DNA from: an uncultured Flavobacteriaceae bacterium
GTDB lineage: Bacteria > Bacteroidota > Bacteroidia > Flavobacteriales > Flavobacteriaceae
Assembly: GCA_964558965.1 (NCBI GenBank)
Contig: CAZLGZ010000002.1
Span: 1-42,235, forward strand
Length of the DNA: 42,235 bases
Direction of reading: 5' to 3'
Both the position numbers and the translations under genes were made by a program. Shown here one piece after another: positions 1,992 to 21,604 of the stretch. The notes under the pieces are model-generated. The model saw nothing but the letters and a program-made list of their open reading frames with translations. It was not told the origin of the DNA and did not search any database. Within the stretch, counting starts at the first letter, position 1; the number at the start of each line of letters is the position of its first letter.

Positions 1992-3344
1992 ATGCCCTAT
2001 TCCTTACTCGTCATTGTCTCTTTGGTGGCCTTGATCATATTTTGCAGTCTTCGCCTAAAATGGCACCCGGTATTTAGTCTGTTGACAGCTGCTCTCTTAG
2101 GAGGGTTAGCACTGGGGTTAAATCCTGAGGAATTAAGCAAGACCATCGCGGCAGGCTTTGGTTCCACCCTGGGAAGTATCGGTTTGGTTATCGCATTAGG
2201 AACGGTCATTGGTCATTATTTGGAACAAACAGGAGGCACGCGCTATATCGCGGATAAACTACTGCAGTGGACCGGTCCAGCAAGGGCTCCTTGGGCACTT
2301 AATATTGCTGGGTTTGTCATCTCTATACCGGTATTTTGTGACTCTGGTTTTATCGTGCTTTCCCCGCTGACCAAATCTCTGGCGCAACGGTCGAACTGGT
2401 CTCGCTTGGTTTTAAGCATCGCTTTGGCAACCGGCCTGTACGCCGCTCATGTATTTGTTCCGCCGACACCTGGTCCTTTGGCTGCGGCAGCCTTGCTCGA
2501 CGCCAATTTGGGATTACTCTTGGGATGGGGACTCCTCGTTGGATTAATCGCTGCCACCACGGGTTATCTCTGGGCACGTTTTGGATTATCTTCTCAAAAG
2601 GCCAAAGAAGATCCACAGGAAATGAAGAACGAAGAACTAATTCAATCGTCCCGTCCAACTGGGGGTGCGGGTCATTTTTTACCGGTCCTGATTCCCGTCC
2701 TGCTTATCGGCTTGGGCTCCGTGGCCAATTGGCCGGGAAGCGCCTTGGAATCTGCCGGAATGTTTACCCTCGTGTTGCAATTCTTGGGGTCTCCTGTAAT
2801 TGCCTTGGGTGTCGGATTGTTGTTTAGTTTTCTTCTGGCAAAACGCTTTGCGGTAAAAGAGCAGCAATCTTGGATTCTGAAGGCATTTGAGCAAGCGGGG
2901 GTTATTCTCTTGGTCACCGGAACGGGTGGAGCCTTTGGTGCGGTATTAAAGACCGTCGATTTGGCTTCCATGCTTCCTTTGTCGGGAGATTCGGCCTGGG
3001 GAGCCCTGTTGGTCTTTTTTGCTTTGTCCGCCCTTTTGAAATCGGCCCAGGGATCTTCTACGGTGGCCATCCTAACGGTGAGCTCAATTGCAGCCCCTTT
3101 GTTAGGGGAGGTGGGATTGGCTAACCCTCTTGGCCGCGTATGTGCGGTATTGGCCATCGGTGCAGGGGCGATGACTGTTTCGCATGTAAACGACAGTTAT
3201 TTCTGGGTAGTGAACCAGTTTACTGGCTTGACGGTTAAACAAAGCTTAAGGTCCCTTACACTGGCCACTGGATTACAAGGTGTGGTGAGTATTGCCTCTG
3301 TAATCGCACTTTACTTGGTCCTGGGATCTACTCTTGAATCGTAA
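1992..3344 (+). CDS. GntP family gluconate:H+ symporter-like permease
   Basis: Highly hydrophobic 450 aa with IPVFCDSGF, HVFVPPTPGP, AQGSSTVA and SHVNDSYFW motifs. Confidence 0.9.
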   Translation: MPYSLLVIVSLVALIIFCSLRLKWHPVFSLLTAALLGGLALGLNPEELSKTIAAGFGSTLGSIGLVIALGTVIGHYLEQTGGTRYIADKLLQWTGPARAPWALNIAGFVISIPVFCDSGFIVLSPLTKSLAQRSNWSRLVLSIALATGLYAAHVFVPPTPGPLAAAALLDANLGLLLGWGLLVGLIAATTGYLWARFGLSSQKAKEDPQEMKNEELIQSSRPTGGAGHFLPVLIPVLLIGLGSVANWPGSALESAGMFTLVLQFLGSPVIALGVGLLFSFLLAKRFAVKEQQSWILKAFEQAGVILLVTGTGGAFGAVLKTVDLASMLPLSGDSAWGALLVFFALSALLKSAQGSSTVAILTVSSIAAPLLGEVGLANPLGRVCAVLAIGAGAMTVSHVNDSYFWVVNQFTGLTVKQSLRSLTLATGLQGVVSIASVIALYLVLGSTLES

Positions 3345-4218
3345 GGGTAGCTTTAAATTCCTGTACAATGGCAAAATACCCTAAAGGAAAGACTTCCGGC
3401 TGGCTAACATTGTCCACGACTTCGTCGTTGTCCAGATCGGTTACATCAAAGACATTACCGCGTACAATGGCCACCGGGGTTTGAAAAACCCCACCATCAT
3501 CTTGGGTTTGCTCAATAAGCAGTGTCATGTAGTCGTAAAAACCCTGATCGGCTCCCAGAATACTCACTTCAATTTCATCTCCGGGCTCTAAATCTGTGTC
3601 GTAGAAATAGGAAAACTCAAAGGGTTGCCCGTCGAAGAACTGATCCTCAACGGTCAAGAATTCACTGAACCCAAAGTCAAAGACATAGTAGTTGTCCTCT
3701 AAGGGGGTGTCCGTTATCTGCACAATGACCTCTGTGTCGTCCTCGCTGAAGAGGATATCATCTCCCTGTCGTAGTTCATGGATTTCGACACTGGGAACAA
3801 ATCGAGTCCTCGCAAAATAAAGTCTACCCTCGTGGACGATCTGTAATATCAACTCGCCGTTTGTGAAAAACTCAACAAATACGGGGTCTTGATCACTGTA
3901 GATACCGGTTCCCGGTTCCACTTCTTCCAATACAATGAAACCAGTGCCAAGACCGTCATTACCCAAATTCGAGATGGTCATTTGGGTAATATTGGACACG
4001 GGTTCGGCCTGGTTAAAGAAGGGCGTGCTCCGGGTTACCCTGATCTCAGGCCGGAAAAAGGTTTGACTCGTATCGATTCGTATGATGGCATCGACAACCA
4101 GTCGCTGTTCCTCTGCCGGAACCTCTACTTCGATCACATCTTCGCAGCCCCATCCCACACTGGCCACAAGCAGGAGGAAAATTCCTTTCTTGAGAAGAGT
4201 CAAACGGAGAGGTTTCAT
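3328..4218 (-). CDS. DUF4249-like outer-membrane lipoprotein, paralog 2
   Basis: Lipobox GWG-C followed by acidic EDVIEVE, and C-terminal VRGN...PLGYF. Lies downstream of the TonB receptor and overlaps its paralog by 4 nt. Confidence 0.8.
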   Translation of the reverse strand: MKPLRLTLLKKGIFLLLVASVGWGCEDVIEVEVPAEEQRLVVDAIIRIDTSQTFFRPEIRVTRSTPFFNQAEPVSNITQMTISNLGNDGLGTGFIVLEEVEPGTGIYSDQDPVFVEFFTNGELILQIVHEGRLYFARTRFVPSVEIHELRQGDDILFSEDDTEVIVQITDTPLEDNYYVFDFGFSEFLTVEDQFFDGQPFEFSYFYDTDLEPGDEIEVSILGADQGFYDYMTLLIEQTQDDGGVFQTPVAIVRGNVFDVTDLDNDEVVDNVSQPEVFPLGYFAIVQEFKATLTIQE

Positions 4219-5087
4219 TCTTGTTCTTCTAGGGTTAAAGTGGCTTTGAATTCCTGCACGACGGCAAAGTAACCCAAGGGAAATACGTCGGGTTGAGAAA
4301 CATTATCGACCACTTGATCATTGTCCAAATCGGTGACATCGAAGATGTTTCCTCTAACGGTAGCCACAGGCGTCTCGAAGACGCCACCGTCGTTTTGTGT
4401 CTGTTCAATGAGTAGGGTCATATAGTCGAAAAAGCCTTGATCGGCGCCCAGTATACTCACCTGCAGCTCTTGCCCGGTCTCTAATTCTTCTTCATAGAAA
4501 TAAGAAAACTCAAAGGTTTGCCCATTGAAGAATTGATCCTGAACAGTCAAGAATTCGCTGAAACCAAAATCAAAGACATAGAAATTTTCTTGATCTGCGG
4601 TGTCCGTTATCTCGACAATGACTTCGGTATCGTCTTCACTAAAAAGGATATCGTCTCCTTGTTCTAAGCGGTTGATTTCTACACTGGGTACAAATTCTGT
4701 TCGCGCGAAGTAAAGTCGATCTTCGTGTTCGATTTGTAAAATTAGTGGCCCCGAAAGGAGGGTGTCTACTGGAAAAGGTTCTGGATCGCGGTAGATCCCT
4801 GAACCGGGCTCTGTTTCTTCCAGGACCATGAATTCTTGTCCTGTTCCGTTCTCATTCAGGGCGGCCAAGGTCATTTGGGTGATATTGGAAACTGGTTGAA
4901 CCGCATCAAAAAAGGAGGCGGTCTGGGTCACGCGAATTTCGGGTTGAATAAAGGCTTGACTCGTGTCTACCCGTATAATGGCATCAATGACCAAACGCGG
5001 GGCTTCAGAGGGTACCTCGACCTCGATTACATCTTCACAAGCCGTGATAACACCGGCTAATAGGAGTAGGGCTAGAATACGGCGCAT
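4215..5087 (-). CDS. DUF4249-like outer-membrane lipoprotein, paralog 1
   Basis: Lipobox ITA-C-EDVIEVE with the same C-terminal motifs. Starts 3 nt after the TonB receptor stop. Confidence 0.8.
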   Translation of the reverse strand: MRRILALLLLAGVITACEDVIEVEVPSEAPRLVIDAIIRVDTSQAFIQPEIRVTQTASFFDAVQPVSNITQMTLAALNENGTGQEFMVLEETEPGSGIYRDPEPFPVDTLLSGPLILQIEHEDRLYFARTEFVPSVEINRLEQGDDILFSEDDTEVIVEITDTADQENFYVFDFGFSEFLTVQDQFFNGQTFEFSYFYEEELETGQELQVSILGADQGFFDYMTLLIEQTQNDGGVFETPVATVRGNIFDVTDLDNDQVVDNVSQPDVFPLGYFAVVQEFKATLTLEEQE

Positions 5088-7692: not shown

Positions 7693-9933
<2,241 letters not shown>

Positions 9934-9943
9934 TTAAGCGGTG

Positions 9944-9951
9944 CAAATATA
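9944..9951 (-). promoter_or_regulatory. -7 element (TATATTTG) of icd
   Basis: Exact TAnnTTTG match 22 nt upstream of the icd ATG, downstream of the 10009-10050 hairpin. Confidence 0.65.
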
Positions 9952-10002: not shown

Positions 10003-10050
10003 AAAAGGAAAAGCCATATGCCCGGGATTGAACGCAAGCATATGGCTTTT
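10003..10050 (-). terminator. Intrinsic terminator-like hairpin
   Basis: 13-bp perfect inverted repeat AAAAGCCATATGC (10009-10021) / GCATATGGCTTTT (10038-10050). It extends by two G-U pairs plus one G-C only on the minus strand, where CCTTTTATTT follows. Confidence 0.7.
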
Positions 10051-10230
10051 GAAAGAGGCCTTGCCTCTTTGAAATAGTCCTCACCCAAGCTCTTACCATA
10101 GGAAGTTAAAGTTCGGACTATCGGTTACGAAGAACTTTTGATTCTTGTCAGGAGATACTACCTGGGTACTCCGCTTACAGACCAAAATCTTCTGAAGTGT
10201 TGATCACCCTACTAGGTTGATCGGTAATTC
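10003..10230 (-). ncRNA. Putative structured non-coding RNA, family not recognised
   Basis: Five consecutive stem-loops in a non-coding gap, with upstream -7-like elements and a 3' terminator. See findings. Confidence 0.55.
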
Positions 10231-10294
10231 TTACAGCAAGATAGAGAAAAATACTCTTCGCGATATGAAAAGTAATTAACTGGAAATAAACAGC

Positions 10295-10327
10295 TTATCC
10301 ACAAGAGTTATGCACAATTGTGAACAG
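10295..10327. promoter_or_regulatory. DnaA-box cluster
   Basis: TTATCCACA (10295-10303, perfect), TTATGCACA (10308-10316, fits TTWTNCACA) and an inverted CTGTTCACA (10319-10327, 2 mismatches), with AT-rich flanks. Confidence 0.7.
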
Positions 10328-10352
10328 CAAAAATAAAAATGAAAAGGGTGGA

Positions 10353-10703
10353 TTACTTGCGAACCTCTTTGATACGGGCCTTTTTACCAGTAAGTCCTCG
10401 GAAGTAGAAAATACGAGCGCGACGTACTTTACCTTTCTTGTTGATCTCAATCTTTTGAAGTGCCGGCATATTGATAGGGAAGATACGTTCTACACCTACC
10501 GTTCCAGACATCTTGCGGATTGTAAAGGTTTCGGTTGCTCCGCTACCACGACGTTGAATAACCACTCCCTTGAAGAACTGGGTTCTGGTTTTTTCACCTT
10601 CCTTAATTTCGTAGTATACTGTAATGGTATCTCCTGCTGAAAATTCAGGAAAGTCTTTTTTCTCTACAAATTGTTCTTCTACGAAATTGATCAAAGAATC
10701 CAT
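10353..10703 (-). CDS. rplS: 50S ribosomal protein L19
   Basis: FPEFSAGDTITV...EGEKTRTQFFKGVVI...GVERIFP...GKVRRARIFYFRGLTGKKARIKE. Confidence 0.98.
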   Translation of the reverse strand: MDSLINFVEEQFVEKKDFPEFSAGDTITVYYEIKEGEKTRTQFFKGVVIQRRGSGATETFTIRKMSGTVGVERIFPINMPALQKIEINKKGKVRRARIFYFRGLTGKKARIKEVRK

Positions 10704-10754
10704 GGTCGTCTATTTTTCGAAGCACCGAAGTGCGGCTTAATCTTAAATTGACTG

Positions 10755-10762
10755 CAAAATTA
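10755..10762 (-). promoter_or_regulatory. -7 element (TAATTTTG) of rplS
   Basis: Exact TAnnTTTG match in the trmD-rplS gap. Confidence 0.6.
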
Positions 10763-10801
10763 ATTCTTTATTTTAATACGGCAACCTTTTTTTGAATGAT
10801 T

Positions 10802-20179: not shown

Positions 20180-21604
20180 TTAGACGAACTTTTTATTTAA
20201 GTCTTCGATGTATTTGCGGAACTGTTTGTCGGTTTCCGCCAGGTTATCCACGGTTTTACAAGCGTGTAAAACGGTAGCGTGGTCTCTTTTTCCTATTTGC
20301 GAGCCAATACTCGCCAGGGAGGCCTTGGTGTATTTTTTTGCAAAGAACATGGCCAATTGACGGGCCTGTACAATGTGTCTTTTACGGGTTTTCGACTGCA
20401 GTGTAGCCACGTCCATCTCAAAGTACTCGGCCACCATTTTCTGAATGTAGTCAATGGATACTTCGCGTTTGGTGTTCTTGACGAATTTGTCAACCACCTC
20501 TCTGGCCAATTCCAGGGTAATATCCTTCTTGTTGAAGGAAGACTGTGCCATCAGTGAGATGAGTGCGCCTTCTAATTCCCGAATATTGGACTTGATATTC
20601 TTGGCGATGTAGTCGATAATTTCTTCCGGCATCTCGGTACCATCTCGGTACATCTTATTCTTGAGGATCGAAATCCGTGTTTCGTAATCCGGGCTTTGCA
20701 GCTCAGCGGAAAGTCCCCATTTAAAGCGAGAGAGAAGGCGTTGCTCTATATCCTGCATATCAACAGGCGCCTTGTCAGAGGTCAGGATCACTTGCTTTCC
20801 GTTCTGGTGCAGGTGATTGAATATGTGGAAGAATACATCCTGGGTTCCGGCCTTACCGGAAAGGAATTGTACATCATCAATAATCAGCACATCGATGAGC
20901 TGATAGAAATGAATAAAGTCGTTGCGGGTATTCTTTTTGACAGAATCAATGTACTGTTGCGTAAATTTTTCTGCCGAGATGTAAAGAACAGTTCGTTCCG
21001 GGTGTTTGTCTTTTATTTCGACACCAATGGCGTGTGCCAGGTGTGTTTTACCTAAACCTACTGCGCCAAATATGAGCAGGGGGTTAAAGGAAGTTCCTCC
21101 AGGTTTGTTGGCGACCGCCATTCCTGCTGAACGCGCAAGTCGATTGCTATCTCCTTCCAAAAAGCTGTCAAACGTATAGGTCGGATTGAGCTGGGATTCG
21201 ATTTTGATATTTCGGATACCCGGGATCACAAAGGGATTCTTGAGTTCTGGGTTTTTAGAAGCCACGGGGACATCCAGCTCCTGTGGGGGCACCGCCGAGC
21301 GGTTTGAACTCGGAATTTTTTCGGTGTACGGATGTTTGTTTCCATAGCGGTTTTCCATCTTAATAATGTACACCAATTTTGCATTTTCTCCCAATTCTTT
21401 TCGCAGAGCCACTTTGAGCAACTTAACGTAGTGCTCCTCTAACCACTCATAGAAAAATTTACTGGGTACCTGAATGCTTAATGCGCTCTCCGTAAGCCGA
21501 ACCGGTTTGATTGGTTCGAACCACGTTTTGAACGCCTGCGGCTGAATATTGTCCTCTATAAAAGCCAAACAATTATTCCATACCGAAGTAGCAGAAGCAG
21601 TCAT
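20180..21604 (-). CDS. dnaA: Chromosomal replication initiator DnaA
   Basis: FNPLLIFGAVGLGKTHL, LIIDDVQF, RLLSRFKWGL, NIRELEGAL and RDHATVLHA motifs. Confidence 0.98.
   Translation of the reverse strand: MTASATSVWNNCLAFIEDNIQPQAFKTWFEPIKPVRLTESALSIQVPSKFFYEWLEEHYVKLLKVALRKELGENAKLVYIIKMENRYGNKHPYTEKIPSSNRSAVPPQELDVPVASKNPELKNPFVIPGIRNIKIESQLNPTYTFDSFLEGDSNRLARSAGMAVANKPGGTSFNPLLIFGAVGLGKTHLAHAIGVEIKDKHPERTVLYISAEKFTQQYIDSVKKNTRNDFIHFYQLIDVLIIDDVQFLSGKAGTQDVFFHIFNHLHQNGKQVILTSDKAPVDMQDIEQRLLSRFKWGLSAELQSPDYETRISILKNKMYRDGTEMPEEIIDYIAKNIKSNIRELEGALISLMAQSSFNKKDITLELAREVVDKFVKNTKREVSIDYIQKMVAEYFEMDVATLQSKTRKRHIVQARQLAMFFAKKYTKASLASIGSQIGKRDHATVLHACKTVDNLAETDKQFRKYIEDLNKKFV

What the first reader, a model, noticed from the sequence alone, without database searches (positions are those of the whole stretch)
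10003..10230. Unannotated ~220-nt multi-hairpin RNA between rplS and icd
Seen, in minus-strand order: hairpin 1 GATCA-x-CCT/AGG-x-TGATC (10202-10222); a long interrupted rod 10129-10192 (GAAGA/TCTTC, TTTTG/CAAAA, GGAG/CTCC, TAC/GTA); a 7-bp stem ATAGTCC/GGACTAT (10074-80/10115-21); an 8-bp hairpin AAAGAGGC/GCCTCTTT (10052-70); then a 13-bp terminator-like hairpin with a U-rich tail. ACCGAT leads into two of the stems, exactly 100 nt apart. A -7-like TATCTTGC (10236-43) sits just upstream. icd has its own consensus promoter downstream of the terminator, so this looks like a free-standing transcript rather than an icd leader. It lacks the hallmarks of tRNA, tmRNA, RNase P and SRP RNA and is not a single 6S-type rod. 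Inference: a possibly undescribed Flavobacteriaceae ncRNA.
Basis: partly seen in the sequence, partly recalled or inferred. Interest (0 to 1): 0.85.

Follow-up and report, generated by a model that had tools for sequence, protein, structure and literature searches.

The report
Abundant uncatalogued RNA of marine flavobacteria
The gap between two housekeeping genes holds a stand-alone folded-RNA gene that recurs across marine Flavobacteriaceae, matches no Rfam family and is about a thousand times more abundant than its neighbours in one transcriptome of a close relative; it likely works as a protein-binding RNA, and its promoter is predicted to be controlled by the replication initiator DnaA.

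Summary
Confirmed and extended. The hairpins are present, and the gap holds a minus-strand RNA gene (predicted 10231 to about 10003, 229 nt) with its own promoter and terminator. In one transcriptome of a sister species it had contig depth about 29,000 against 6-27 for icd and rplS, with a 5' end near 10222 (one study only). It is the smallest form of a single-copy Flavobacteriaceae family (111 RNAs, 229-642 nt). The terminator pattern is in 151 of 301 genomes, and the 500-nt subgroup shows 53 of 82 pairs with compensatory change. Rfam has no match. Against: the window's own body folds no better than shuffles without the terminator and has no detectable sequence likeness to the long forms, so its orthology rests on position and signals. 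Function is inferred: a DnaA-linked, Nus-protected, protein-binding RNA. The scan had not noted this family by sequence; it has unverified notes on other Bacteroidota RNAs with boxA.

The parts
10003..10231 (-). Non-coding RNA gene, predicted 229 nt (start 10231 inferred from the -12..-5 position of the promoter box; 3' end in the U-tract near 10003)
   Evidence: (depth, 5' adapter end at 10222)
10284..10327 (.). Array of four DnaA-type boxes: 10327-10319 pointing towards the RNA, then 10316-10308, 10303-10295 (perfect TTATCCACA) and 10292-10284 in the opposite sense; box 4 overlaps an IHF-like consensus in relatives
10236..10243 (-). Bacteroidota -7 promoter box TATCTTGC (TAnnTTGY type)
10202..10222 (-). 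5' hairpin 1; the observed 5' contig end in run X3 is at its first base
10129..10192 (-). Interrupted rod; its base pairs with, and would mask, the 3' half of the boxA-like motif
10126..10137 (-). boxA-like motif AAGTTCTTCGTA (family consensus ACGTTCTTTATA; Flavobacteriaceae rRNA boxA AAGTTCATTGACATATTG)
10073..10122 (-). Domain closed by GATAGTCC/GGACTATT; its 3' arm CTATTTCAA matches the closing arm of the last domain of long forms
10052..10070 (-). 8-bp hairpin seen only in this genus
10003..10050 (-). Intrinsic terminator with family-conserved stem AAAGCCATAT...ATATGGCTTT and U-tract
9944..9951 (-). Separate consensus promoter TATATTTG of icd, downstream of the terminator
   Evidence: sequence
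10353..10703 (-). rplS (L19), upstream neighbour
7693..9921 (-). icd (monomeric IDH), downstream neighbour

Best explanation
The locus is a stand-alone gene for a very abundant, folded, non-coding RNA that likely acts as a protein-binding scaffold or sponge, is predicted to be transcribed like an rRNA operon (boxA loading the Nus complex) and is likely tuned by DnaA bound to the box array before its promoter. Steps: (1) a sigma-A-type promoter fires at about 10231 and the transcript ends at the conserved terminator; shown by sequence and one transcriptome of a sister species. (2) DnaA on four boxes held about 96 nt upstream of the start sets promoter output; the boxes are shown, DnaA binding and regulation are inferred. 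(3) The boxA recruits NusB-S10 so that an untranslated RNA of up to 640 nt escapes Rho and folds, and its 3' half is then tucked into a stem; motif and pairing are shown, Nus binding is inferred from E. coli and B. subtilis. (4) The mature RNA is a string of independently folded domains that presents helices and loops to a protein partner rather than a seed to mRNAs; structure is shown for the 500-nt subgroup, the partner is unknown. The window's 229-nt form is read as a reduced member.
For: Expression: depth 29,468 over 10005-10171 against 27 for rplS and 6-12 for most of icd. A contig of depth 17,875 ends in sequencing adapter at 10222, nine bases from the predicted start (run X3). Conservation: the exact terminator pattern is in 151 of 301 family genomes, at two sites in only six, reversed control 0. 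The -7 box sits at offset 91-94 from the array in 62 of 64 cassettes. A promoter profile built without the window's genus finds the window as top hit in its genome, E 0.004. Structure: 43 RNAs of about 500 nt, 82 pairs, 53 with change on both sides, 95.9% of cells paired, 0 of 500 shuffles, slid controls 38-47%. In my tree-based test on 33 of them the top 11 covarying pairs all lay in the structure, 3 at E<0.05. There is no shared ORF. boxA: GTTCT lies in the first 130 nt of 102 of 111 RNAs and in 36 of 39 representatives against 7.5 expected. A matrix of it ranks the rRNA-leader boxA first in 3 of 5 leaders and within the top three in 5 of 5, and the same rRNA motif recurs before 23S in 4 of 4 operons. 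DnaA-type boxes: the same TTATNAACA box is dense at the probable origin and paired upstream of gyrB and an HU gene. This is the only cluster with a perfect TTATCCACA in the window's genome.
Against: No partner or phenotype is known. Expression rests on assembled contigs of one study. Run X1 was flat (DNA-like), X9 had no cover over the RNA (its contigs diverge on both flanks) and X12 barely covered the locus. The window's body has z -0.5 to -1.1, profiles of long-form bodies do not find it, and the 3'-end covariance model ranks its terminator only second in its genome at 31.8 bits, a score ordinary terminators reach. The RNA differs from the sister species at 6.5% of sites, close to icd's 8.2%. 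The 15-sequence Maribacter-type alignment gave no significant covariation (best E 0.5). Seven relatives keep the RNA without the box array, so DnaA control is dispensable. In the window the boxA is degenerate and at +95, later than the usual +40 to +78.
Confidence: 0.45

Rival explanations
1. Nus decoy: the RNA's job is to display boxA in very high copy and titrate NusB-S10, linking rRNA antitermination to DnaA status; the body only stabilises it.
For: boxA and the terminator are the only sequences shared by all size classes, the window included; body length varies from 229 to 642 nt; abundance is very high.
Against: The 3' half of boxA is paired in a stem: 6 of 6 pairs in 59 of 91 RNAs and at least 5 in 75, with the best of seven loop lengths chosen, which inflates this; it is also paired in the window. 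The 500-nt subgroup keeps 16 helices and an invariant loop, more than a decoy needs.
Confidence: 0.13
2. Trans-acting base-pairing small RNA that regulates mRNAs through a seed.
For: Own promoter and terminator; SrcF of Segatella (272 nt, structured, abundant) is a Bacteroidota precedent (passages of 10.1101/2024.04.05.588293); the invariant loop GTCAATACATTTTGAAA of the 500-nt subgroup could be a seed.
Against: No single-stranded stretch is shared across subgroups except boxA. The bodies are mostly paired with GNRA-type loops. The invariant loop itself forms a 4-bp stem. mRNA targets were not searched.
Confidence: 0.14
3. The working part is the DNA: a DARS- or datA-like DnaA-box cluster, with the neighbouring transcription unit serving to reset or modulate it.
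For: Box orientation (first opposite to the rest) equals the E. coli DARS core (PMC6868365 introduction). Box 4 fits the IHF consensus perfectly in 65 of 109 arrays. The array is single-copy and 1.0-1.5 Mb from the probable origin in six genomes.
Against: Spacing differs: offsets 0/11/24/35 against 0/14/26 in DARS1 and DARS2. Only one HU/IHF-family gene was found in this 84%-complete genome. The RNA persists without the array in seven relatives, and its fold covaries. This can be true alongside the best explanation.
Confidence: 0.11
4. The family is functional, but the window's short body is a decayed or unrelated replacement kept only between an old promoter and terminator.
For: No profile hit to long bodies, weak folding, and near-neutral divergence from the sister species.
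Against: Extreme abundance with a defined 5' end; the boxA-like motif, the last-domain arm and the terminator are retained; most sister-species changes are unpaired or keep the pair.
Confidence: 0.11
5. Cis-acting leader or riboswitch of icd, or 3' extension of the rplS mRNA.
For: Nearly always upstream of icd. rplS has no clear terminator hairpin in this genus. One X3 contig spans 9463-10069.
Against: icd has its own promoter and is 0.7-5.4 kb away in 8 relatives. rplS is not adjacent in L009, L010, L012, L020 and L084. Depth is about 1000 times that of either gene.
Confidence: 0.04
6. The gap is the chromosomal origin and the hairpins are incidental.
For: Box cluster; dnaA lies 10 kb away in the window and in several relatives.
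Against: In three complete genomes GC skew keeps one sign across the locus (11 of 11, 10 of 10 and 9 of 11 samples) and switches 1.0-1.3 Mb away, at the gap upstream of rnr, which has dense boxes and trio-like repeats.
Confidence: 0.01

Closest known systems
Orphan large structured bacterial RNAs (OLE, ROOL, GOLLD, raiA motif); properties recalled, not read here
   Same: Stand-alone, abundant, multi-domain, covarying helices with GNRA-type loops, no ORF, function open
   Different: No Rfam match to any of them; chromosomal, single-copy, found only in marine Flavobacteriaceae among those searched; size varies almost threefold; no phage or plasmid copies found
rRNA operon leader with boxA (E. 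coli UGCUCUUUAACA, B. subtilis AUGAUCUUUGAAA; PMC13753749 passages)
   Same: Promoter, 5' hairpin, boxA about 40-80 nt in, then a long stalk enclosing a large domain; matches the family's own rRNA boxA
   Different: No rRNA or tRNA follows; the boxA 3' half is paired in a local stem; no longer likeness to the rRNA operon than shuffles give
E. coli DARS1/DARS2 and datA (PMC6868365 introduction; PMC11724364 passages)
   Same: DnaA-box cluster far from oriC, first box opposite to the next two, IHF-like site, next to a promoter (datA lies by a tRNA operon)
   Different: Spacers 2/4/2 nt instead of 5/3 nt; box consensus TTATNAACA; locked at fixed distance to an RNA promoter; activity untested
6S-Flavo RNA (RF01685)
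   Same: Abundant stand-alone RNA of Flavobacteria
   Different: The genome's copy is on contig C51; this RNA is multi-domain, not one rod with a central bubble
SrcF of Segatella copri
   Same: Bacteroidota, abundant, about 270 nt, structured, with a 3' stem-loop
   Different: Confined to Segatella and controlled by fructans per the preprint; sequences were not compared
icd and icd-II motifs; L19-Flavobacteria leader (RF03130)
   Same: Same neighbouring genes
   Different: icd is Pseudomonas and icd-II Polynucleobacter, both cis-acting; the L19 leader lies upstream of rplS

Membership tests
Any Rfam 15 family | Score at the gathering threshold | tested here: not met
   0 hits in the window; best E 3.7 in the gap; none over cut-off inside the cassette in 10 + 15 relatives' loci
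6S / 6S-Flavo | Match to RF01685 or RF00013 | tested here: not met
   RF01685 hit is on C51, RF00013 none
tmRNA | tRNA-like ends and tag reading frame | tested here: not met
   ARAGORN finds none in the window; full tmRNA elsewhere in 5 of 5 relatives; no full tmRNA was found in this 84%-complete genome
RNase P RNA / SRP RNA | Match to RF00010 / RF00169 | tested here: not met
   Copies on C253 and C170
icd-linked riboswitch or leader | Always directly 5' of icd on the same transcript | tested here: not met
   icd 0.7-5.4 kb away in 8 loci, with its own promoter
Small-protein mRNA | Conserved ORF | tested here: not met
   Best shared sense ATG with an ORF of 10 aa or more: 18 of 50 and 6 of 27 sequences
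oriC | Located at the GC-skew switch | tested here: not met
DARS core | Boxes I and II opposite, III parallel to II | tested here: met
DARS core | Conserved 5-nt and 3-nt spacers | tested here: not met
   2 and 4 nt here
DARS core | ADP release from DnaA | not testable with these tools
   needs biochemistry
boxA antitermination signal | Likeness to the lineage's rRNA boxA, near the 5' end | tested here: met
   one base differs consistently (GTTCT against GTTCA) and the window's copy is degenerate
boxA antitermination signal | Binds NusB-S10 and blocks Rho | not testable with these tools
   needs binding and reporter assays
This new Flavobacteriaceae RNA family (is the window a member?) | Same locus, array spacing, promoter, boxA-like motif, terminator | tested here: met
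This new Flavobacteriaceae RNA family (is the window a member?) | Body homologous to the long forms | tested here: inconclusive
   no profile hit; only short arm matches; just two short-form sequences available

The most novel reading that the evidence does not exclude
A previously unrecognised housekeeping-level RNA of marine Flavobacteriaceae that couples replication to ribosome synthesis: DnaA on a DARS-like array sets the output of an rRNA-style transcript, which in turn titrates or scaffolds Nus or nucleoid proteins.
Probability: 0.15. Interest if true: 0.9.

Novelty: new variant of a known kind. Interest (0 to 1): 0.7.

Why it matters
Marine Flavobacteriaceae are major degraders of algal polysaccharide and include easily cultured genera, yet an RNA that reaches about a thousand times the depth of a ribosomal-protein mRNA in one dataset is uncatalogued. 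The family offers a natural deletion series (229 to 642 nt, with and without the DnaA-type array), which makes its essential core directly testable. It also points to a DnaA-controlled non-coding RNA, and as a by-product gives a lineage-specific DnaA box, a boxA and a probable origin upstream of rnr.

Tried and rejected
oriC: rejected by GC skew in three complete genomes (the fourfold-site skew was too noisy to use). Anti-boxA pairing (conserved TCAAT loops pairing with rRNA boxA): duplex energies were no better than shuffled 16-mers, rank 24, 8 and 19 of 30; rejected. Derivation from, or pairing with, rRNA: longest matches were at shuffle level. Direct BLAST of the window RNA found only the sister species among 60 relatives. 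A metagenome pattern scan for more short forms gave 5 unrelated terminators. Viral contigs, phages and plasmids gave no match. The 3'-end covariance model is too generic outside the family. The subgroup loop matched exactly only at the cassette; 9 of the other 10 loci examined lay inside ORFs. The array pattern was found in 11 of 45 family genomes, 0 of 26 of one large genus (inferred to be Flavobacterium) and 0 of 205 other genomes of the order; it missed the window's own divergent array. In F. psychrophilum the rplS-icd gap is annotated only as weak read-through (PMC9723704 supplementary file 4). The sigma-70 scan tool is not suited to these promoters and missed the terminator. Known errors: three transcripts (L232, L223, L103) were cut short by my script and dropped from counts after (114 to 111), but they were still in the profiles and counts. 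In one search dnaA was translated from the wrong strand, so its arrow is reversed but its distance holds. Literature searches for this RNA found nothing. The library lacks most subscription papers; one supplement of PMC9723704 was too large to read; bioRxiv supplements were closed; later motif-discovery papers were covered only through Rfam.

Full report
Observation. The gap lies between rplS (10353-10703) and a monomeric icd (7693-9921), both on the minus strand. The region folds better than shuffles (z -3.4), but the terminator supplies that signal; without it z is -1.1, and without the 8-bp hairpin too it is -0.5. Rfam 15 gives nothing in the window. 6S-Flavo, RNase P and SRP RNA sit on other contigs. 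No full tmRNA was found in this 84%-complete genome, but it lies elsewhere in 5 of 5 relatives.

Expression. Four of 23 listed runs were laid, all as assembled contigs. In X3, a transcriptome whose variants match the sister species G001, depth over 10005-10171 was 29,468, against 27 for rplS and 6-12 for most of icd. A contig of depth 17,875 ends in adapter at 10222. F. psychrophilum promoters place the TAnnTTTG or TAnnTTGY box at -12 to -5 (PMC9723704, passages), which predicts a start at 10231. The adapter orientation fits a minus-strand RNA if the library is of the usual stranded type (inference). X1 was flat, X9 lacked cover over the RNA but diverged on both flanks, and X12 barely covered the locus. 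Expression therefore rests on one study.

Family. BLAST finds only the sister species, but icd-anchored loci show a conserved cassette: box array, promoter, variable body, terminator. The exact terminator pattern is in 151 of 301 Flavobacteriaceae genomes, with a reversed control of 0. Among 30 rplS loci returned from 52 genomes lacking that pattern, 15 had array and RNA, 3 had the RNA only and 12 had neither next to rplS, 7 of these with icd following closely. I collected 111 RNAs of 229-642 nt, median 448; the window and its sister are the two shortest. The cassette is independent of its neighbours: rplS is not adjacent in five loci and icd is 0.7-5.4 kb away in eight. It was not found outside Flavobacteriaceae in the genomes searched, nor in viral contigs, phages or plasmids. 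F. psychrophilum shows only weak read-through in this gap (supplementary file 4).

Structure. For 43 of the 50 members of the largest subgroup (those of 480-530 nt), RNAalifold predicts 82 pairs in 16 helices. Of these, 53 show change on both sides, 0 of 500 shuffles reach the observed values, and slid partners pair in only 38-47% of cells against 95.9%. A tree-aware test on 33 sequences put the top 11 covarying pairs all in the structure, 3 at E<0.05; the 15-sequence Maribacter-type set gave none. Nine of 11 relatives' bodies fold at z -2.4 or lower without the terminator (15 shuffles each). No ORF is shared. The plan is a string of domains ending in a stem whose 3' arm CTATTTC precedes the terminator, as in the window. 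Profiles of the long bodies do not find the window and the 3'-end model ranks it second in its genome. Its membership therefore rests on position, array spacing, promoter (top hit, E 0.004), the boxA-like motif and the terminator.

Signal 1, DnaA-type boxes. The window has the genome's only cluster with a perfect TTATCCACA. Relatives have four TTATNAACA-type boxes, with the -7 box at a fixed offset in 62 of 64 cassettes. I first took this for oriC, since dnaA is 10 kb away. In three complete genomes where dnaA is 0.75-1.6 Mb away, GC skew does not switch at the cassette. It switches where the gap upstream of rnr lies, which is dense in the same boxes and has trio-like repeats. An Ori-Finder call near mnmG is reported for a relative (PMC12843772, passages); I did not check whether it is the same place. 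The same box is paired upstream of gyrB and an HU gene. So the array is likely a DnaA site away from the origin. Its orientation matches the DARS core (PMC6868365, introduction and passages; PMC11724364, passages), but its spacing does not. Seven relatives keep the RNA without it.

Signal 2, boxA. The only body motif common to all size classes is GTTCT(T). It resembles AAGTTCATTGACATATTG, which precedes 16S and 23S in these bacteria, and the E. coli and B. subtilis boxA consensus (PMC13753749, passages). boxA loads NusB-S10 and shields untranslated RNA from Rho (PMC13753749; PMC12360218, passages). In most long forms its 3' half pairs with a sequence just upstream, and in the window it pairs in the base of the rod. 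This suggests use during transcription and masking afterwards (inference).

Mechanism. Most likely (0.45): a DnaA-tuned, Nus-protected, stable RNA that acts by binding protein. The existence of the RNA gene I put near 0.9. Rivals are a base-pairing sRNA (0.14), a Nus decoy (0.13), a DARS-like DNA site with secondary transcription (0.11), a decayed short form (0.11), a leader (0.04) and oriC (0.01).

Novelty. No Rfam family matches, and four paper searches returned nothing on it. The icd and icd-II motifs are proteobacterial cis elements (PMC2864571 and PMC8632094, passages). SrcF was seen as passages only. Properties of OLE, ROOL, GOLLD and raiA are recalled. Earlier scan notes describe other Bacteroidota RNAs with boxA-like leaders, but place and sequence look-ups found no note on this RNA, and their relation is untested. 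Verdict: a real, uncatalogued RNA family of a known general kind, interest 0.7.

Noticed in passing
L285 (G253:C1 about 406.5 kb), L286 (G236:C1 about 2,394 kb), L329 (G165:C1 about 1,394 kb), G000:C4:1-275: Probable Flavobacteriaceae replication origin upstream of rnr (rpiB on the other side in L285 and L286): dense TTATNAACA boxes and a box followed by trio-like repeats; it lies inside the GC-skew switch in 3 of 3 genomes sampled and far from dnaA.
   Followed up: partly
L269 (G001), L266 (G236), L284 (G001): Paired TTATNAACA boxes upstream of an HU gene and of gyrB, suggesting a DnaA regulon of DNA-handling genes.
   Followed up: partly
window 20180-21604 (minus strand): dnaA with no intergenic box cluster beside it; its helix-turn-helix reads RDHATVLHA in the window and 5 of 5 relatives, which may relate to the relaxed box (E. 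coli has Thr at the Ala position, recalled).
   Followed up: no
window about 10704-10800: Relatives carry the L19-Flavobacteria leader (RF03130) here; the window's copy did not reach the Rfam threshold.
   Followed up: no
window 10321-10352: No clear terminator hairpin after rplS in this genus, unlike most relatives.
   Followed up: no
L017, L028, L033, L074, L077: A gene of about 190 codons that looks like a pentapeptide-repeat protein (by eye, not scanned) is inserted between the RNA terminator and icd.
   Followed up: no
L062 positions about 331 and 839: A second box-array-like stretch just downstream of the RNA terminator.
   Followed up: no
L305, L306, L303 (rRNA promoters): Tandem repeated promoter-plus-boxA-like units upstream of 16S genes; extra boxA-like copies in the spacers of G229 and G073.
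   Followed up: no
alignment A1 columns 417-434; 23S-5S spacers in L312-L314: The invariant loop of the 500-nt subgroup and the terminator 5' arm contain (G/A)TCAA(T), resembling a 23S trailer sequence complementary to boxA; duplex energies did not beat shuffles.
   Followed up: partly
window 3328-5087: Two tandem paralogous lipoprotein-like genes downstream of a TonB-dependent receptor-like gene.
   Followed up: no
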